Part shown: positions 58,698 to 64,000 of the stretch, piece after piece
How the letters are laid out: each line of letters begins with the position of its first letter
Position numbering within the stretch: the first letter of the stretch is position 1
Made by a program: the position numbers and the translations under genes
Notes under the pieces: generated by a model
What the model was told of the DNA's origin: nothing
Database searches by the model: none
What the model saw: only the letters and a program-made list of their open reading frames with translations
From: a virus
Taxonomy: Duplodnaviria; Caudoviricetes
Length of the DNA stretch: 64,000 nt
Direction: 5' to 3' (one strand)
IMG/VR virus record: IMGVR_UViG_3300049198_000021
Location: 112,505-176,504 of that record

Positions 58698-59535
58698 ACG
58701 CCAGCCTGATGGCGATAGTGTGGGGCAACTCACATAAAGGGGGTAAGGTCACATAACCCCGCCCGAAAGGGTCAATTCAGGCAAGTGCAGTCAGGTCCGC
58801 GAGGATCGCTTCTGGTAACAGGAGATAGACTGGAATGGGGCAGGGGCGCGTGAAGCGCACAGGGAGGGGCCGACGGTGCCTCCTAACGCCGGAGTAGAAC
58901 CCGGAGCCTGTATCTAACCCAAACCAACTCGATGATAAAGCACAAGGTCACGGGTTCGAGGCTTAGCGGCTGAGGGCGGTGGTCAATCTTGCAGGGTTCA
59001 CGTCCTGTCTGATGGTCTTGGTAGCTCTTAGCGGAGTGACGGATATGAGGCGACTAGCATTCCTTCGGCGGAAACGTCATGGGAACTAGGTGATAGCTCG
59101 TCTCGGTGGCTTGCACAATCTAGCTCAGTGGTAGAGCATCGGACGCTTAATCCGACGGTCGAAGGTTCAATCCCTTTGGTTGTTATCAAACGCAAAGATT
59201 GTCACGACTGCATGTGAAAGACGCCTAATGCCGTAGGGTTTACCCAATGCGGCCCGACCTGATCTCGCAAGGTGATGGTTGGTTGGTGGAAGAAGTTTCG
59301 TTGGGCCCGCAAGCCCTTAATGGCTGGAGACAGTCAGCGGAATCGAAACTGCCGAATATCATGCAGTGTCGTCGCTAATGCCAGCGACCCCGTGAGAACC
59401 GGGAAAAATAGGCGGCGTTGATCTGGGACCAGACTACCGCAAGGGGTTTGGTGGATAAGCCGGGAAAGTGACTCGCAAGGTCACCATAATCTGTGCGAAC
59501 GACGGATCGTGAAAGGCGTAGTCTCAGCCTGACAT
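58698..59535 (+). ncRNA. GOLLD-like giant structured RNA (about 840 nt) with embedded tRNA
   Basis: ORF-free; many GNRA-capped hairpins (GAAA, GCAA, GTAA, GCGA); internal tRNA; 3' end AAAGGCGTAGTCTCAGCC resembles my recollection of the GOLLD 3' domain; next to phage tRNA cluster; promoter TTGACA at 58663. Boundaries approximate. Confidence 0.65.
59114..59185 (+). tRNA. tRNA-Lys(CTT)-like, embedded in the GOLLD-like RNA
   Basis: TAGCTCAGTGGTAGAGC D arm, TCGGA-CGCTTAA-TCCGA anticodon arm (G33), GGTTCAATCC T arm; no encoded CCA. Confidence 0.7.
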
Positions 59536-60435: not shown

Positions 60436-60650
60436 ACGCCGATTTATCAGCCGCGAAAGCTCAAGGGACACCTTGGGGGAGTTCGCTCAGTGGCTTTCAC
60501 CATGCACTTAACCGGGGTTGTGCCCGGAGCGGTGCTAGATTGAGAGCCGGGAGTGGGACAAGTAACGGACCAACTGATCCATACCCTACCGCCGGGCGCT
60601 TCTAATTCGGTGAGAATGGTGCGAAATGTAGTGGTTCGCACAATCGGTGT
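60436..60650 (+). ncRNA. Unassigned structured RNA F
   Basis: ACGCCGATT/AATCGGTGT closing stem followed by a T run; several internal hairpins. Confidence 0.4.
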
Positions 60651-60660
60651 AATTTTTTAG

Positions 60661-60689
60661 TTGACATTCGAATCGGATGTCGTTACACT
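60661..60689 (+). promoter_or_regulatory. Sigma70-like promoter of tRNA operon 1
   Basis: TTGACA-N17-TACACT. Confidence 0.85.
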
Positions 60690-60741
60690 TCGAGCTTCAA
60701 GACCGGGACGCCCCGGCTCACAAGGATTTTAGAGTTCCATC

Positions 60742-60834
60742 ATGTTCAACGTAGTCGCCATGAATAACCCAGCAGCACCGGCCATTATGGTCCCGGTCGT
60801 TGTGGCGTGCGTTGATGGAGGAACGAAGGTCTAA
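60742..60834 (+). CDS. Attenuator leader peptide 1 (MFNVVAMNNPAAPAIMVPVVVACVDGGTKV)
   Basis: 30-codon ORF between promoter and terminator; codons 3-22 are all N/V/A/M/P/I, the isotypes of the downstream tRNAs. Confidence 0.8.
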   Translation: MFNVVAMNNPAAPAIMVPVVVACVDGGTKV

Positions 60835-60864
60835 GACCTCCTCAGTATCAAGCAAGTCATTCCG

Positions 60865-60901
60865 ATCGGGGGCCATGGAAACATGGCCCCCGATTTCGTT
60901 T
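60865..60901 (+). terminator. Attenuator terminator 1
   Basis: Perfect 13-bp stem ATCGGGGGCCATG-GAAA-CATGGCCCCCGAT with a TTTCGTTT tract, ending 1 nt before tRNA-Pro. Confidence 0.85.
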
Positions 60902-60977
60902 CTAGGTGTGGGAAAGTTGGTAATCCGCCTGATTTGGGATCAGGAGACCGTAGGTTCGAACCCTACCACTTAGACCA
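60902..60977 (+). tRNA. tRNA-Pro(TGG)
   Basis: Cloverleaf, CCTGA-TTTGGGA-TCAGG, CCA. Confidence 0.92.
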
Positions 60978-60983
60978 GTTAAT

Positions 60984-61062
60984 CAGGCGGTAGGGGAGTC
61001 TGGCCGTCCCTACCTCCCTCGGACGGAGGGGATCGCAGGTTCGAATCCTGCCCGCCTGACCA
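60984..61062 (+). tRNA. tRNA-Pro(CGG)
   Basis: CCTCC-CTCGGAC-GGAGG, GGTTCGAATCC, CCA. Confidence 0.92.
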
Positions 61063-61068
61063 AGTTAT

Positions 61069-61139
61069 AGCAGAGCCTCAGTGGGGGCGGGGCCTCATAA
61101 GCCTTTGACCCGGTGGCGCACATCCACCCTTTGCTACCA
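61069..61139 (+). tRNA. Atypical tRNA-Met(CAT)
   Basis: AGCAGAG/CTTTGCT acceptor, CTCATAA loop, CCA; reduced D arm; T loop CGCACAT. Confidence 0.65.
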
Positions 61140-61277
61140 GATAGGTGACCCAGCCACCTCCTCGTCGATCGCCGAGATCGTCAGGTGCCCCGCACGATCA
61201 GCGGAGCTAGTAAAACCACTGGGACGTTTCGAACCGTCTCGTTGAGACGCGTCTAAGCCGGAGTAATTAACCGGCGT

Positions 61278-61388
61278 ATGCGGGGCGGTTGTAGAACGAG
61301 GAGGACGCCGGTTCGAATCCGGCCACCGGGGCAAGGCTCCGGTGTAGCTCAGGTGGTTAGAGCGCCTTGTTGGTTTCGTCCCCGGCAT
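61278..61388 (+). ncRNA. YrlA-type Y RNA-like circularly permuted tRNA mimic
   Basis: Order is T arm (GCCGG-TTCGAAT-CCGGC), loop-closed acceptor stem (CACCGGGGC-AAG-GCTCCGGTG), D arm (TAGCTCAGGTGGTTAGAGC); anticodon stem AACGAGG/CCTTGTT continues into a terminal stem. Confidence 0.75.
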
Positions 61389-61417
61389 CCGTCAAATCGG
61401 ATGGGACAAGAGTTTGT

Positions 61418-61493
61418 TGGTGATTAGCTCATTCAGGAGAGCGCTGGTGTCACATACCAGAGGCGGCAGGGGCAGAGCCTGCATCACCAACCA
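61418..61493 (+). tRNA. tRNA-Val(CAC)
   Basis: CTGGT-GTCACAT-ACCAG, CCA; T loop GGCAGAG. Confidence 0.8.
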
Positions 61494-61494
61494 T

Positions 61495-61572
61495 CCACGG
61501 ATAGCTCAGTTGGTAGAGCGGCCGACCGATAATCGGCGTCTTGCGGTGGTTCGAGCCCACCTCTGTGGACCA
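61495..61572 (+). tRNA. tRNA-Ile(GAT)
   Basis: GCCGA-CCGATAA-TCGGC (C33), CCA. Confidence 0.85.
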
Positions 61573-61622
61573 GTTTGAATAGGCTGTAACAGCCGAAACT
61601 CAGGGGTTAGTCTCCCTGTAAG

Positions 61623-61711
61623 AGTGAGACCAATAGACCGAACATTCGGCCGGCGGATGAGTTGACGACTCGCACTCCCGGCGCGATCAGTAGGTTGAGG
61701 TCTCGCTACCA
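61623..61711 (+). ncRNA. CCA-ended tRNA-like RNA, unassigned
   Basis: AGTGAGACC/GGTCTCGCT stem followed by ACCA, internal hairpins, no canonical T loop. Confidence 0.4.
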
Positions 61712-61717
61712 GTTTAT

Positions 61718-61792
61718 TTCGTAGTAGCTCAATGGTGGAGCAGCCCGCTGTTAACGGGAAGGTTGTAGGTTCGAGCCCTACCTACGGAGCCA
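61718..61792 (+). tRNA. tRNA-Asn(GTT)
   Basis: CTGTTAA loop, G73, CCA. Confidence 0.92.
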
Positions 61793-61806
61793 GATAGGAG
61801 AAGTGA

Positions 61807-62115
61807 GTGGAACGCTACAACATCAGCTACGACAGCCCCGGACGGAAACTCCGGGAGACTGATCCGGGACCGTCTGACACCACATGGAAAGGTGTCCGGG
61901 AACATTGGTCGAAGTCGTATGATGGGCAGTTCCTCTCGGATTATGAAGAAGGCGTTCAGCTTGCTATCGCTGATCTGGAAGCTGGTGGTCGAGAGAATCG
62001 CGATGCGCTTCTGGCGGTCGAAGCAACCCAACGCAATCACAGTTGGAATGCTCAGAAGGACGGTTACCTCGATACGATCGGCGAGGGAAAATATATCGGT
62101 CAACTTAATTTCTGA
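61807..62115 (+). CDS. Hypothetical protein inside tRNA operon 1
   Basis: AGGAG RBS, GTG start, 102 aa. Confidence 0.6.
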   Translation: MERYNISYDSPGRKLRETDPGPSDTTWKGVREHWSKSYDGQFLSDYEEGVQLAIADLEAGGRENRDALLAVEATQRNHSWNAQKDGYLDTIGEGKYIGQLNF

Positions 62116-62118
62116 TTT

Positions 62119-62190
62119 GATCCTGTAGCTCAATGGTAGAGCCAGCCCCTCATAAGGGCCGGGTTATAGGTTCAAGTCCTATCAGGATTA
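62119..62190 (+). tRNA. tRNA-Met or Ile2 (CAT)
   Basis: CTCATAA loop; C4-G69/C5-G68 is compatible with a TilS substrate; CCA not encoded. Confidence 0.85.
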
Positions 62191-62191
62191 C

Positions 62192-62267
62192 GCTTCGTTA
62201 GCTCAGTTAGGAGAGCGCTGCTGTGACATGGCAGAGGCCGTAGGGGCAGGACCTACACGAAGCACCA
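62192..62267 (+). tRNA. tRNA-Val(GAC)
   Basis: CTGCT-GTGACAT-GGCAG, CCA; T loop GGCAGGA. Confidence 0.8.
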
Positions 62268-62277
62268 TTTACCCAGT

Positions 62278-62354
62278 GGGGACGCATGTTCTAAGGGTAG
62301 CGAGGACCCCTTGCAAGGCTCCTGATGTCGGTTCGATTCCGACCGTCTCCACCA
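62278..62354 (+). tRNA. tRNA-Ala(TGC)
   Basis: GGGGACG/CGTCTCC with G3-U70, A73, loop CTTGCAA, CCA. Confidence 0.85.
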
Positions 62355-62382
62355 ACTATTTTCGCTGTCTGTGATTTTTTGT

Positions 62383-62411
62383 TTGACATCACAAACCGAA
62401 TCACATATAGT
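62383..62411 (+). promoter_or_regulatory. Sigma70-like promoter of tRNA operon 2
   Basis: TTGACA-N17-TATAGT. Confidence 0.85.
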
Positions 62412-62466
62412 TCGGCTTCAACAACGGGACACGGTGTCCCACAAACAGGATTTTAGAGTGAACGCT

Positions 62467-62529
62467 ATGACCACCCGGTTCGGAAAACGAGATCGCCGAG
62501 AAGGCGATGAACGAGGTTTTACCTCGTAA
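62467..62529 (+). CDS. Attenuator leader peptide 2 (MTTRFGKRDRREGDERGFTS)
   Basis: 20-codon ORF (in-frame GTG at 62458 also possible); codons 4-18 are all R/F/G/K/D/E; same AGGATTTTAGAG upstream element as leader 1. Confidence 0.8.
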   Translation: MTTRFGKRDRREGDERGFTS

Positions 62530-62565
62530 CCCGGTAGTGCGTGTTGCTGCCGGTGTTGTCCTGAC

Positions 62566-62642
62566 GGACCGGTAGCTCAGTAGGTTAGAGCAGGGGATTC
62601 TTAATCCCAAGGTCGAGAGTTCAAATCTCTCCCGGTCATCCA
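62566..62642 (+). tRNA. tRNA-Lys(CTT) inside attenuator 2
   Basis: TTCTTAA loop, GAGAG-TTCAAAT-CTCTC; G1-A72 mismatch and U73; CCA. Confidence 0.8.
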
Positions 62643-62659
62643 AGACAACATCGGTTTTC

Positions 62660-62698
62660 AAAACGCCCTACCGGTCGCCCGGTGGGGCGTTTTCGTTT
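62660..62698 (+). terminator. Attenuator terminator 2
   Basis: AAAACGCCCTACCGG-TCGC-CCGGTGGGGCGTTTT followed by CGTTT. Confidence 0.85.
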
Positions 62699-62726
62699 GC
62701 CCTTTCTCGGCCGGCTCCCTTGGAAT

Positions 62727-62802
62727 GGACCGGTAGCTCAGTAGGCAGAGCGCGGGACTTTTAATCTTGAGGTCGTGGGTTCGAACCCCACTCGGTCTAC
62801 CA
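62727..62802 (+). tRNA. tRNA-Lys(TTT)
   Basis: CTTTTAA loop, CCA. Confidence 0.92.
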
Positions 62803-62828
62803 AGGAGTTCAATAGGTTACGACTAGAT

Positions 62829-62903
62829 GCGGGTGTAGCTCAGTGGTAGAGCACCTGCTTGCCAAGTAGAAGGTCGCGGGTTCGATCCCCGCTACCCGCT
62901 CCA
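62829..62903 (+). tRNA. tRNA-Gly(GCC)
   Basis: GCGGGTG acceptor, TTGCCAA loop, U73, CCA. Confidence 0.93.
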
Positions 62904-62931
62904 GTCGAAGTTGTTAGTGATGAGTGATGAT

Positions 62932-63006
62932 GCGTCCGTAGCCAAGCGGAAAGGCAGTGGGTTTCCACCCCGCGATGCGCGAGTTCGATCCTCGCCGGAC
63001 GCTCCA
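62932..63006 (+). tRNA. tRNA-Gly(TCC)
   Basis: TTTCCAC loop, U73, CCA. Confidence 0.92.
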
Positions 63007-63018
63007 TCACTTATCATT

Positions 63019-63093
63019 GGCCGTGAAGCCCAACGGTTGGGCAGCGGATTGTCTATCCGAAGGTTGCGGGTTCGAATCCCGTCACGGTCGCCA
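63019..63093 (+). tRNA. tRNA-Asp(GTC)
   Basis: TTGTCTA loop, G73, CCA. Confidence 0.9.
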
Positions 63094-63096
63094 GTT

Positions 63097-63206
63097 TGCA
63101 GTATCGTCTAATCCCCGACAACGGGGACAGAGTGTCATGACCTCTGGGACTAGGATAGCCGGGCGAAGAACCGGAGGATGTCGGTTCGATCCCGGCTGCT
63201 GCGCCA
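63097..63206 (+). ncRNA. tRNA-like RNA with two extra hairpins in the D loop
   Basis: TGCAGTA/TGCTGCG stem, canonical T arm, CCA; inserted TCCCCG/CGGGGA and CAGAG/CTCTG hairpins; 8-nt loop GCGAAGAA. Confidence 0.6.
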
Positions 63207-63213
63207 AGTTTAT

Positions 63214-63292
63214 ACCGTCGTCGCGGAAGTGACACGCCCGATTGATCGATCGGCCCGGCAGGGTGTGGGTGAAAGACCCACCGACGGTTCCA
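63214..63292 (+). ncRNA. tRNA-like RNA of undetermined isotype
   Basis: ACCGTCG/CGACGGT followed by TCCA, short variable arm, T loop TGAAAGA, 6-nt anticodon loop TGATCG. Confidence 0.55.
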
Positions 63293-63299
63293 AATTCAC

Positions 63300-63373
63300 G
63301 GCCCCATCCTCTATGGGTAAGAGGCCGCCTTCTCATGGCGGTAAACCGGGTTCGAGCCCCGGTGGGGCTACCA
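63300..63373 (+). tRNA. tRNA-Glu(CTC)
   Basis: CCGCC-TTCTCAT-GGCGG, CCA. Confidence 0.9.
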
Positions 63374-63387
63374 AGTTTGCGAATTAA

Positions 63388-63463
63388 GGTCTGGAAGATC
63401 AACTGGAAGATCAACTGATTACGAATCAGAAGGGTGTGGGTTCGAATCCCACGCAGACCACCA
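63388..63463 (+). tRNA. tRNA-Arg(ACG)
   Basis: TTACGAA loop, CCA. Confidence 0.88.
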
Positions 63464-63470
63464 AGTTAAT

Positions 63471-63544
63471 GGCCCCATCCTCTATGGGTAAGAGTCCGCC
63501 CTTTCAAGGCGAGAAACCGGGTTCGAGCCCCGGTGGGGTCACCA
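63471..63544 (+). tRNA. tRNA-Glu(TTC)
   Basis: CTTTCAA loop, CCA; paralog of 63300. Confidence 0.9.
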
Positions 63545-63556
63545 GAATATATCAGT

Positions 63557-63632
63557 GCCGCTTTAGCTCAACTGGATAGAGCGCGGGCGTCCGAAGCCCA
63601 AGACTGGGGTTCGAGTCCCTGAGGCGGCACCA
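63557..63632 (+). tRNA. tRNA-Arg(CCG)
   Basis: GTCCGAA loop, CCA. Confidence 0.9.
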
Positions 63633-63633
63633 C

Positions 63634-63708
63634 GGATAGGTAGCTCAGTGGTAGAGCGCCGGCTTGAAACCCCGGAAGTCGAAGGTTCAATTCCTTCTCT
63701 ATCCACCA
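63634..63708 (+). tRNA. tRNA-Phe(GAA)
   Basis: TTGAAAC loop, CCA. Confidence 0.9.
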
Positions 63709-63714
63709 TACTCT

Positions 63715-63784
63715 GCCCCCGCCGAGGTGGGCCATGAGCCTTCTAAGCTCTAGGGCGTCGGTTCGATTCCGGCCGGGGGCTCCA
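63715..63784 (+). tRNA. Atypical tRNA-Arg(TCT) with reduced D arm
   Basis: GCCCCCG/CGGGGGC, CTTCTAA loop, canonical T arm, CCA; only 70 nt. Confidence 0.75.
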
Positions 63785-63785
63785 T

Positions 63786-63873
63786 ACTTCCCGAGCGGGA
63801 AGATTTGCTCCCGATCGGGATCAGAACGACCAGAAACTTCCCGATCGGGAAGATATGCTCCCGAGCGGGATCA
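63786..63873. repeat. Four palindromic TCCCGA(G/T)CGGGA boxes in a 50-bp-period direct repeat
   Basis: Boxes start at 63789, 63809, 63839 and 63859. Confidence 0.9.
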
Positions 63874-63903
63874 AAAAAAAAACACCGACATTGAAAATAA
63901 GTG

Positions 63904-63932
63904 TTGACTCCTGTAGGTTCCTTCCATATACT
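63904..63932 (+). promoter_or_regulatory. Sigma70-like promoter of predicted tRNA operon 3
   Basis: TTGACT-N17-TATACT; A-tract and CACCGACATT box upstream. Confidence 0.8.
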
Positions 63933-63939
63933 TCGCAGC

Positions 63940-64000
63940 ATGTTCACACAGACCGCCTTGCAATGCCTTACGGGCACCACGCTATATTGGCATAGCCAGT
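63940..64000 (+). CDS. Predicted leaderless leader peptide 3 (MFTQTALQCLTGTTLYWHSQ..., truncated by window)
   Basis: Only 7 nt separate the -10 box from the ATG; 16 of codons 3-20 are T/Q/L/C/Y/W/H/S. Confidence 0.7.
   Translation, partial: MFTQTALQCLTGTTLYWHSQ

What the first reader, a model, noticed from the sequence alone, without database searches (positions are those of the whole stretch)
62467..62698. Attenuator 2 has a whole tRNA-Lys(CTT) built into the antiterminator loop
Seen: CCGGTAGTGCGT (62531-62542), starting 2 nt after the leader stop, pairs 11 of 12 with ACGCCCTACCGG (62663-62674), the terminator 5' arm. Between them a 12-bp helix (62549-60/62644-55) carries the tRNA at its apex and brings the strands together. 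This tRNA lies before the terminator, has a G1-A72 mismatch and U73, and its codon AAG is absent from leader 2. Its 5' end GACCGGTAG is also complementary to the terminator arm. Inference: a ribosome at the stop codon masks the antiterminator. The embedded tRNA is either made constitutively or acts as a structural, decoy or cleavage-sensing part of the switch.
Basis: partly seen in the sequence, partly recalled or inferred. Interest (0 to 1): 0.85.

Follow-up and report, generated by a model that had tools for sequence, protein, structure and literature searches.

The report
tRNA gene nested inside phage attenuator
In a large phage of sphingomonad bacteria, a complete lysine tRNA gene sits inside the RNA switch (short test gene, anti-stop helix, stop hairpin) that gates ten further tRNA genes; 11 related sequences keep this layout, and I found no published description of it.

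Summary
Promoter (62383-62411), 20-codon leader ORF (62467-62529), segment R2 (62531-62542), a 12-bp stalk (62549-60/62644-55) carrying tRNA-Lys(CUU) (62566-62642), and an intrinsic terminator (62660-62698) are all present. R2 pairs 11 of 12 with the terminator 5' arm; 6 of 20,000 shuffles do as well.

Eleven further homologs (Lacusarx-like phages, metagenomes, a Sphingobium assembly) keep the whole layout. Their stop codon lies 0-1 nt before R2, and the R2-to-R3 distance is 119-125 nt. Compensatory changes occur in R2:R3 (2 pairs, one three-way with R4), the stalk (6 pairs) and the tRNA stems (12 pairs).

Folding with a modelled ribosome footprint gives R2:R3 probability 0.8-0.99, but 0-0.24 when the stop codon is in the A site.

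The G1-A72 mismatch is private to this genome. U73 is not tied to the switch. The complementarity between the tRNA 5' end and the terminator is not conserved.

Best reading: a leader-peptide attenuator of a phage tRNA operon. Its antiterminator loop holds a real tRNA gene, transcribed on every initiation, which may also serve as a spacer. Unit 3 repeats the design with tRNA-Ser(CGA).

This scan has noted codon-matched attenuators before phage tRNA genes in other genomes. The nested tRNA is the new element. No expression data exist.

The parts
62383..62411 (+). Promoter of unit 2: TTGACA, 17-bp spacer, TATAGT (11 of 12 consensus matches)
   Evidence: A TTGAC -35, a 17-bp spacer and a TA...T -10 are present in the homologs whose upstream sequence is held.
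62426..62440 (+). 5'-UTR stem-loop (GGGACA/TGTCCC)
   Evidence: Folded. A hairpin of different sequence sits at the same place in the homologs (read by eye; not counted formally).
62467..62529 (+). Leader ORF, 20 codons plus TAA (MTTRFGKRDRREGDERGFTS). Codons 4-18 use only K, G, D, E, R and F, the amino acids of the tRNAs of this unit.
   Evidence: The frame, start and stop are conserved in 12 homologs. All indels inside the ORF are 3 nt long. Substitutions are synonymous or stay within the set (GAT/GAC, CGA/CGG, D/E, E/R).
62492..62526 (+). Two small, almost invariant hairpins inside the leader: ATCGCC/GGCGAT at 62492-62508 and CGAGG/CCTCG at 62512-62526. Role unknown.
   Evidence: They show no covariation, so the structures are unproven.
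62531..62542 (+). R2, the 5' arm of the antiterminator, one base after the stop codon
   Evidence: It is the best upstream partner of R3 in 12 of 12 homologs (-13 to -19 kcal/mol).
62549..62560 (+). 5' strand of the 12-bp stalk that carries the tRNA
   Evidence: Six of 12 pairs show compensatory changes.
62566..62642 (+). tRNA-Lys(CUU) gene with encoded CCA, U73, and a genome-private G1.A72
   Evidence: Compensatory changes occur in 5 of 7 acceptor pairs, 4 of 5 anticodon-stem pairs and 3 of 5 T-stem pairs.
62644..62655 (+). 3' strand of the stalk
62660..62674 (+). Terminator 5' arm. Positions 62663-62674 are R3, shared by the antiterminator and the terminator.
62679..62698 (+). Terminator 3' arm (R4, 62679-62693) and its T run
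   Evidence: R4 changes together with R2 and R3 in L003, L007 and L084.
62727..63784 (+). The gated genes: tRNA-Lys(UUU), Gly(GCC), Gly(UCC), Asp, Glu(CUC), Arg(ACG), Glu(UUC), Arg(CCG), Phe and Arg(UCU). No promoter-like site lies between them and the terminator.

Best explanation
Unit 2 is a ribosome-dependent (leader-peptide) transcription attenuator of a phage tRNA operon. A complete tRNA-Lys(CUU) gene lies inside its antiterminator loop.

Proposed mechanism. Transcription from the promoter makes the leader, then R2, then a 12-bp stalk bearing the tRNA, then R3 and R4.
- If ribosomes stall in the leader on codons read by Lys(UUU), Gly, Asp, Glu, Arg or Phe tRNAs, or if no ribosome arrives, R2 stays free. 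The folded stalk and tRNA bring R2 next to R3, R2:R3 forms, the terminator cannot form, and RNA polymerase reads into the ten downstream tRNA genes.
- If ribosomes run through to the stop codon, their footprint covers R2. R3 then pairs with R4 and transcription stops.

Because the tRNA lies before the terminator, it is transcribed on every initiation whatever the decision. It reads AAG, which is 84% of the phage's Lys codons and which no leader uses.

Its roughly 120 nt also delay the decision by the time the polymerase needs to transcribe them. I infer that this gives ribosomes time to start and finish the 20 codons.

Shown: the anatomy, its conservation, the covariation, and the footprint geometry in silico. 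Inferred: translation of the leader, the direction of the response, the constitutive supply, and the timing role.
For: Anatomy and significance
- R2:R3 pairs 11 of 12; 6 of 20,000 shuffles match this.

Conservation
- Twelve homologs share the layout. The stop codon is 0-1 nt before R2 and the R2-to-R3 distance is 119-125 nt.
- ARAGORN calls tRNA-Lys(CTT) in the 11 sequences scanned. In L144 I read the tRNA from the sequence.

Covariation
- R2:R3 is 88.6% paired, with A-U to G-C in L007 and C-G to U-A in L003, L007 and L084. The second change is matched in R4.
- Six stalk pairs and 12 tRNA-stem pairs show compensatory changes.
- Sliding the partners by 1-3 columns drops pairing to 31-55%.
- R2 is the best upstream partner of R3 in 12 of 12 homologs.

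Footprint geometry
- For 10 of the homologs (L115 and L144 were not modelled), the probability of R2:R3 in transcripts ending at R3 is 0.80-0.99 with no ribosome or a ribosome at internal codons.
- It is 0.00-0.24 with the stop codon in the A site.

Evidence that the leader is coding
- Indels inside the ORF are 3 nt only.
- Changes are synonymous or stay within the amino-acid set.
- The start and stop codons are conserved.
- Fifteen consecutive codons use only the six amino acids of the unit's tRNAs.

Other support
- No promoter-like site lies between the terminator and the next ten tRNAs.
- AAG is 1200 of 1429 Lys codons in the phage. The leader instead uses the rare AAA, CGA, GGA and TTT.
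- The design recurs in unit 3. tRNA-Ser(CGA), which reads the commonest Ser codon, lies between the leader stop and the terminator in four phages.
Against: - There are no RNA data of any kind.
- Only two R2:R3 pairs covary, probably reflecting two or three evolutionary events, and the 12 sequences form a narrow group.
- R2 and R4 are near-copies, which a duplication could also produce.
- In L144 the pairing is weaker (-13 kcal/mol, with the register partly shifted).
- I found no protector (1:2) hairpin or pause signal. At equilibrium R2:R3 forms without any ribosome. Termination would therefore need ribosomes near the stop codon for the 2-3 s I estimate for transcribing 120 nt, which is a demanding requirement.
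- The Shine-Dalgarno sequence is weak or distant in most homologs.
- GAG and AGA are also absent from this leader although their tRNAs lie downstream. The absence of AAG is therefore weak evidence.
- In Lacusarx, leader 3 does contain TCG, the codon read by the nested tRNA-Ser(CGA) of that unit. That counts against the rule that a leader avoids the nested tRNA's codon.
Confidence: 0.6

Rival explanations
1. Processing stalk rather than switch. R2:R3 plus the 12-bp stalk form a long interrupted duplex around the tRNA that serves precursor processing or stability, like the long-range helices that enclose rRNAs in rRNA operons. Under this reading the terminator is simply a leaky, unregulated stop, and the leader ORF is a small gene or is not translated.
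For: - The two helices stack into a roughly 23-bp interrupted duplex that encloses a tRNA.
- Only two pairs covary in R2:R3.
- No protector hairpin or pause signal was found.
Against: - R3 is shared with the terminator, and R2, R3 and R4 change together.
- R2 abuts the stop codon in 12 of 12 homologs.
- The leader's composition matches the downstream tRNAs, and its indels keep the frame.
- Ten tRNA genes depend on read-through of this terminator.
Confidence: 0.15
2. The nested tRNA is an active sensing part of the switch, as a decoy or cleavage sensor. Cleavage by RNase P or by an anticodon nuclease, or binding of a tRNA-recognising factor to the nascent tRNA, would decide whether R2 reaches R3.
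For: - The tRNA sits exactly between the two antiterminator arms in all homologs.
- Lysine tRNAs are known targets of anticodon nucleases (from my own knowledge).
- Related phages carry an RtcB tRNA-repair ligase (PMC5648845, read).
Against: - The stalk of 10-15 bp would hold the two halves together after either cleavage (inference).
- The 'odd' tRNA features are not conserved.
- The tRNA evolves like an ordinary tRNA, with compensatory stem changes and a conserved anticodon loop.
- Unit 3 nests a different tRNA, Ser(CGA).
Confidence: 0.07
3. Neutral passenger. The attenuator works as in the best explanation, but the tRNA is there only because a loop closed by a stable stalk tolerates any insert. 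It gives no benefit through constitutive supply or timing.
For: - Hairpin loops tolerate insertions.
- Unit 1 works without a nested tRNA.
- The constant spacing simply follows from the fixed length of a tRNA.
Against: - The arrangement is kept in all 12 homologs, and arose or is kept in a second unit with a different tRNA.
- Both nested tRNAs read the most used codon of their amino acid.
- AAG is never used in the 12 leaders.
Confidence: 0.15

Closest known systems
Leader-peptide transcription attenuators of enterobacterial amino-acid operons (trpL, hisL, and the multivalent thr and ilvGMEDA leaders) and of pheST (pheM); from my own knowledge
   Same: A promoter is followed by a short ORF rich in regulatory codons. 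An antiterminator helix shares one strand with an intrinsic terminator. The stop codon sits next to region 2, so a ribosome that finishes the ORF masks it. As in thr and ilv, several amino acids are sensed.
   Different: - The gated genes are tRNAs, so the sensor reads the supply of the very products it controls.
- No 1:2 protector hairpin was found, so an untranslated transcript is predicted to read through.
- The antiterminator loop is about 120 nt and is itself a gene.
- No Rfam leader family matches.
rnTrpL of Sinorhizobium meliloti, the terminated trp attenuator RNA that acts as a small RNA (abstract of PMC6614838, listed)
   Same: The product of premature termination is itself a functional RNA and not waste.
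   Different: There the attenuator hairpins themselves act as a base-pairing sRNA. Here a separate, complete tRNA gene is nested in the attenuator and would be released by normal tRNA processing.
T-box riboswitches (Rfam RF00230)
   Same: A terminator/antiterminator decision reports on tRNA charging and controls genes of the translation apparatus.
   Different: T-boxes bind a free tRNA in trans and need no ribosome. This element has no T-box match and has a translated leader. Earlier notes of this scan describe tRNA-Ala genes nested inside leuS T-box leaders. That is the nearest parallel for a nested tRNA, but it is unpublished and I did not check it.
Spacer tRNAs enclosed by long-range processing helices in rRNA operons; GOLLD RNAs with an internal tRNA
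   Same: A tRNA sits at the tip of a helix formed by distant flanking sequences. The same phage also has a tRNA-Lys(CTT) inside its GOLLD RNA.
   Different: In those cases the enclosing helix is not the alternative partner of a terminator arm, and no leader ORF is involved.

Membership tests
Ribosome-mediated (leader-peptide) transcription attenuator | Short translatable ORF between promoter and terminator | tested here: met
   The ORF runs 62467-62529. Frame, start and stop are conserved in 12 homologs, ORF indels are 3 nt only, and substitutions are synonymous or stay within the amino-acid set. Translation itself has not been shown.
Ribosome-mediated (leader-peptide) transcription attenuator | Regulatory codons cognate to the regulated product | tested here: met
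   Codons 4-18 use only K, G, D, E, R and F. Their codons are read by 8 of the unit's 11 tRNAs.
Ribosome-mediated (leader-peptide) transcription attenuator | Intrinsic terminator ahead of the regulated genes | tested here: met
   A 15-bp stem plus T run at 62660-62698 is 91% paired across 11 sequences. No promoter-like site lies downstream of it.
Ribosome-mediated (leader-peptide) transcription attenuator | Antiterminator helix mutually exclusive with the terminator | tested here: met
   R2:R3 pairs 11 of 12; 6 of 20,000 shuffles match this. Two pairs covary, one of them three-way with R4. R2 is the best upstream partner of R3 in 12 of 12 homologs.
Ribosome-mediated (leader-peptide) transcription attenuator | Ribosome position selects the fold | tested here: inconclusive
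   Footprint modelling on 10 homologs fits: R2:R3 probability is 0.8-0.99 with ribosomes at internal codons and 0-0.24 at the stop codon. This is geometry only, with no kinetics or experiment.
Ribosome-mediated (leader-peptide) transcription attenuator | Protector (1:2) hairpin and pause site that couple translation to transcription | tested here: not met
   Without a ribosome R2:R3 still forms with probability 0.8-0.99. Candidate partners for R2 within the leader differ between homologs. This feature belongs to the trp type and is not required of every attenuator.
Ribosome-mediated (leader-peptide) transcription attenuator | Read-through responds to the supply of charged tRNA | not testable with these tools
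   This needs infected cells or a coupled in vitro system.
Functional tRNA gene (tRNA-Lys, anticodon CUU) | Cloverleaf kept by compensatory changes, with a conserved anticodon loop | tested here: met
   ARAGORN calls it in the 11 sequences scanned, and Rfam gives 60.8 bits for the window's copy. Twelve stem pairs show compensatory changes and the D stem is invariant.
Functional tRNA gene (tRNA-Lys, anticodon CUU) | Intact acceptor end (1-72 pair, discriminator, CCA) | tested here: inconclusive
   CCA is encoded in all 12. The window has G1.A72 while the other 11 have G1-C72. The discriminator is U73 in 10 and A73 in 2. From memory, the bacterial norm for tRNA-Lys is A73. Charging was not testable.
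T-box riboswitch | Stem I specifier and the T-box antiterminator bulge | tested here: not met
   Rfam gave no match at gathering threshold or at E up to 1 over 60600-62720.

The most novel reading that the evidence does not exclude
Nesting a tRNA gene inside the attenuator is a deliberate two-tier design used by these phages. One 'pilot' tRNA for the most used codon (Lys AAG in unit 2, Ser UCG in unit 3) is made on every initiation. At the same time it acts as a folded, fixed-length delay line that replaces the polymerase pause of classical attenuators. The rest of the tRNA set is made only when ribosomes report a shortage. If so, these phages regulate their tRNA supply codon by codon through homeostatic feedback.
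Probability: 0.4. Interest if true: 0.85.

Novelty: new variant of a known kind. Interest (0 to 1): 0.75.

Why it matters
Phage tRNA genes are usually discussed only as codon-usage supplements or as replacements for host tRNAs lost to shut-off or defence. How their expression is controlled is largely unknown.

This locus points to feedback control by the ribosome itself. It adds an architectural feature I found no publication on: a gene for a stable RNA placed inside the decision loop of an attenuator. One promoter would then give one unconditional product and ten conditional ones.

It is directly testable with cultured phage-host pairs: Lacusarx with Sphingobium sp. IP1, and vB_EliS-L02 or XM05 with Erythrobacter.

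It would also give a natural example of a long structured insert acting as a kinetic spacer in a co-transcriptional switch, which is useful for thinking about and designing RNA switches.

Tried and rejected
- **Metagenome scan with the leader core.** Of 88 hits, nearly all were GC-rich coding DNA. Only L057, L058, L084 and L104 were real.
- **Viral scan with an R2...R3 pattern.** Of 35 hits, only L115 and its copies were new.
- **Protector hairpin.** Candidate partners for R2 inside the leader (for example ACGCAC in L001 and L006, GGACACA in L084) are not shared by all homologs and do not compete thermodynamically. I dropped this as a general feature.
- **tRNA 5' end pairing with the terminator.** True in the window, but not conserved. 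I rejected it as part of the mechanism.
- **More distant phages.** In DSS3_MAL1 I read two gaps in its tRNA array and saw no equivalent unit in front of tRNA-Lys. For CcrRogue only the annotation table was fetched, and its sequence was not read.
- **Unit 3 antiterminator.** The 7-nt loop CTGACGC against GCGTCAG is conserved in 3 of 4 phages and is 6 of 7 in Lacusarx. Minimum-energy folding misfolds the long-arm tRNA-Ser and cannot model a loop-to-strand contact. Only the nested position of that tRNA is claimed, not its switch.
- **Literature.** Six searches and two phage genome papers gave no description of attenuation at tRNA genes. My vague memory of attenuator-like leaders at E. coli pheU/pheV could not be confirmed.

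Full report
**Context**

The window is the last 64 kb of a 176,504-bp virus record. The record's first 203 bases repeat the window's end.

The stretch from 58.7 to 64 kb is a tRNA array. ARAGORN finds 18 genes and Rfam adds one more. A GOLLD RNA precedes the array.

The nearest cultured relatives are Erythrobacter phages vB_EliS-L02 and XM05 and Sphingobium phage Lacusarx. A contig in a Sphingobium sp. MK2 assembly carries the same unit. The host is therefore probably a sphingomonad.

**The observation**

- A near-consensus promoter lies at 62383-62411.
- It is followed by a 5' hairpin and a 20-codon ORF at 62467-62529.
- One base after the TAA stop comes R2 (62531-62542).
- Next is a 12-pair stalk (62549-60 with 62644-55). 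At its tip is tRNA-Lys(CUU), 62566-62642.
- Last is a 15-bp terminator at 62660-62693 with a T run.

R2 pairs 11 of 12 with R3 (62663-62674), the terminator's 5' arm. A match this good anywhere in the 148 nt upstream of the tRNA arose in 6 of 20,000 dinucleotide shuffles.

**Comparative evidence**

Pattern scans of viral, metagenome and genome collections, plus the three phage records, gave 11 further distinct homologs. All have the following:
- the promoter;
- a leader of 18-20 codons with the core K-R-D-R-R-E/R-G-(D/E)-E-R-G-F;
- a stop codon 0-1 nt before R2;
- an R2-to-R3 distance of 119-125 nt, a stalk of 10-15 bp, a tRNA-Lys(CUU) with encoded CCA, and the terminator.

Pairs were counted on the 11-sequence alignment A2.
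- R2:R3 is 88.6% paired. Two pairs changed on both sides: A-U to G-C in L007, and C-G to U-A in L003, L007 and L084. The second change is accompanied by the matching change in R4, making it three-way.
- A U.C or U.U mismatch in the middle of the helix is conserved.
- The stalk has six compensatory pairs.
- The tRNA has compensatory changes in 5 of 7 acceptor pairs, 4 of 5 anticodon-stem pairs and 3 of 5 T-stem pairs.
- Sliding the 3' partners by 1-3 columns drops pairing to 31-55%.

In every one of the 12 sequences, the segment at stop+1 to stop+4 is the best upstream partner of R3. Its energy is -13 to -19 kcal/mol, against -8 to -15.5 for the runner-up.

The spacers on either side of R2 and R3 vary freely and have 1-2-nt indels. 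Indels inside the ORF are 3 nt only.

**What it is**

The leader's codons 4-18 use only Lys, Gly, Asp, Glu, Arg and Phe. The unit encodes exactly these tRNAs. The individual codons AAA, CGA, CGC, CGG, GAU, GAA, GGC, GGU, GGA, UUC and UUU are read by 8 of the unit's 11 tRNAs.

Substitutions among homologs stay within the set (D/E, E/R) or are synonymous.

No promoter-like site separates the terminator from the next ten tRNA genes, so their expression needs read-through.

Together with the shared-strand R2/R3/R4 arrangement, this is the anatomy of a leader-peptide attenuator. Here it gates tRNA genes.

Units 1 and 3 of the same array have the same logic with other amino-acid sets. Earlier notes of this scan describe similar codon-matched attenuators before tRNA genes in unrelated phages. 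I did not check those.

**How the switch probably works**

I folded transcripts ending at R3, for 10 homologs, with a ribosome footprint imposed from 15 nt upstream to 12 nt downstream of the first base of the A-site codon.
- With no ribosome, or a ribosome at any internal codon, R2:R3 forms with probability 0.80-0.99.
- With the stop codon in the A site, the probability falls to 0.00-0.24.

So stalling, or no translation at all, should give read-through. Ribosomes reaching the stop codon should give termination.

Unlike trp, no protector hairpin competes for R2. The default state is therefore predicted to be ON.

In the full transcript the two constrained states are nearly isoenergetic, at -121.1 and -122.2 kcal/mol.

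One weak point is timing. About 120 nt must be transcribed between R2 and R3, so R2 must stay covered for roughly 2-3 s. That figure is my estimate from textbook elongation rates. Successive ribosomes on the leader could achieve this, but it is untested.

**The role of the nested tRNA**

It is a real, evolving tRNA gene.

Because it lies upstream of the terminator, it is transcribed on every initiation.

The phage uses AAG for 1200 of 1429 Lys codons in 107 long ORFs. The leader instead uses the rare AAA, CGA, GGA and TTT. None of the 12 leaders contains AAG.

The same design appears in unit 3. tRNA-Ser(CGA), which reads the commonest Ser codon, lies between the leader stop and the terminator. 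This holds in this phage (L112), L121, vB_EliS-L02 and Lacusarx.

I therefore favour a two-tier reading: one unconditional tRNA and a conditional remainder. The folded tRNA and stalk also hold R2 and R3 close together and add a fixed delay. The delay role is inference.

I found no evidence for the decoy or cleavage-sensing ideas.
- G1.A72 is private to this genome.
- U73 is replaced by A73 in two homologs, and it also occurs in a roseophage tRNA-Lys(CUU) with no attenuator.
- The complementarity between the tRNA 5' end and the terminator is lost in four homologs.
- The stalk would keep the strands together after cleavage.

**Comparison with known systems and novelty**

Rfam has no matching leader family.

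Six literature searches and the Lacusarx and vB_EliS-L02 genome papers gave no description of attenuation at tRNA genes or of a tRNA nested in an attenuator.

The mechanism class is classical: leader-peptide attenuation, multivalent as in thr and ilv. The regulated product (tRNAs), the predicted default-ON logic and the gene-bearing antiterminator loop are new variants.

The nearest parallels for the nesting are:
- terminated attenuator RNAs with a second function, such as rnTrpL (PMC6614838);
- this scan's unpublished notes on tRNA-Ala genes nested inside leuS T-boxes.

**Limits**

There are no RNA or expression data. The sequence group is narrow, with few independent covariation events in R2:R3. 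The leader's translation, the direction of the response and the timing role are all inferred.

Noticed in passing
window 59047-59530: A GOLLD RNA (Rfam RF02032, 156.7 bits, full length) has a second tRNA-Lys(CTT) inside it at 59114-59185. That tRNA appears to have a mismatched 1-72 pair and no encoded CCA. XM05 also has a tRNA-Lys(CTT) upstream of its Pro tRNAs (L002:1319-1392). Both Lys(CUU) genes of this phage therefore sit inside larger structured RNAs.
   Followed up: partly
window 63904-64000, continuing in L112:109-410 (G000:C1:1-410): Attenuator 3 has a promoter and a 34-codon leader rich in T, Q, L, C, Y, W, H and S. A hairpin starting at the stop codon presents CTGACGC in its loop. 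Then come tRNA-Ser(CGA), GCGTCAG and a terminator. The same layout is found in L121, L001 and L003. It is the second case of a tRNA nested between a leader and its terminator.
   Followed up: partly
window 62192-62264 and about 61414-61490: Two tRNA-like genes with non-standard T loops. The first scores 46 bits with Rfam and is not called by ARAGORN. The second I saw only by eye.
   Followed up: no
window 61282-61385: A weak match to YrlA (Y RNA-like, RF02553), at 37.2 bits against a gathering score of 69, lies inside the tRNA array.
   Followed up: no
window 63786-63876: Two pairs of short palindromes (CTTCCCGAGCGGGAAG and CTCCCGATCGGGATC, then the same with the inner halves swapped) lie just upstream of an A run and promoter 3. 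They may be terminators or an operator.
   Followed up: no
window 63797-64000 = G000:C1:1-203: The virus record ends in a direct terminal repeat of about 203 bp, so the tRNA array runs on at the record's start (tRNAs Ser, Leu, Thr, His, Gln, Gln, Thr, Cys, Trp).
   Followed up: yes
L144 (NZ_JAZDXA010000011.1, Sphingobium sp. MK2, contig of 126,565 bp): A bacterial assembly holds a phage-sized, high-coverage contig with the same unit 2. This is a likely host link, or a co-purified or carried phage.
   Followed up: no
window 60743-60835 (leader 1): The penultimate codon of leader 1 is AAG. The last sense codon of leader 2 is TCG in 8 of the 12 homologs. These are the codons read by the two tRNAs nested in units 2 and 3, and they sit where a stalled ribosome would still cover the region after the stop codon. 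This may be coincidence.
   Followed up: no
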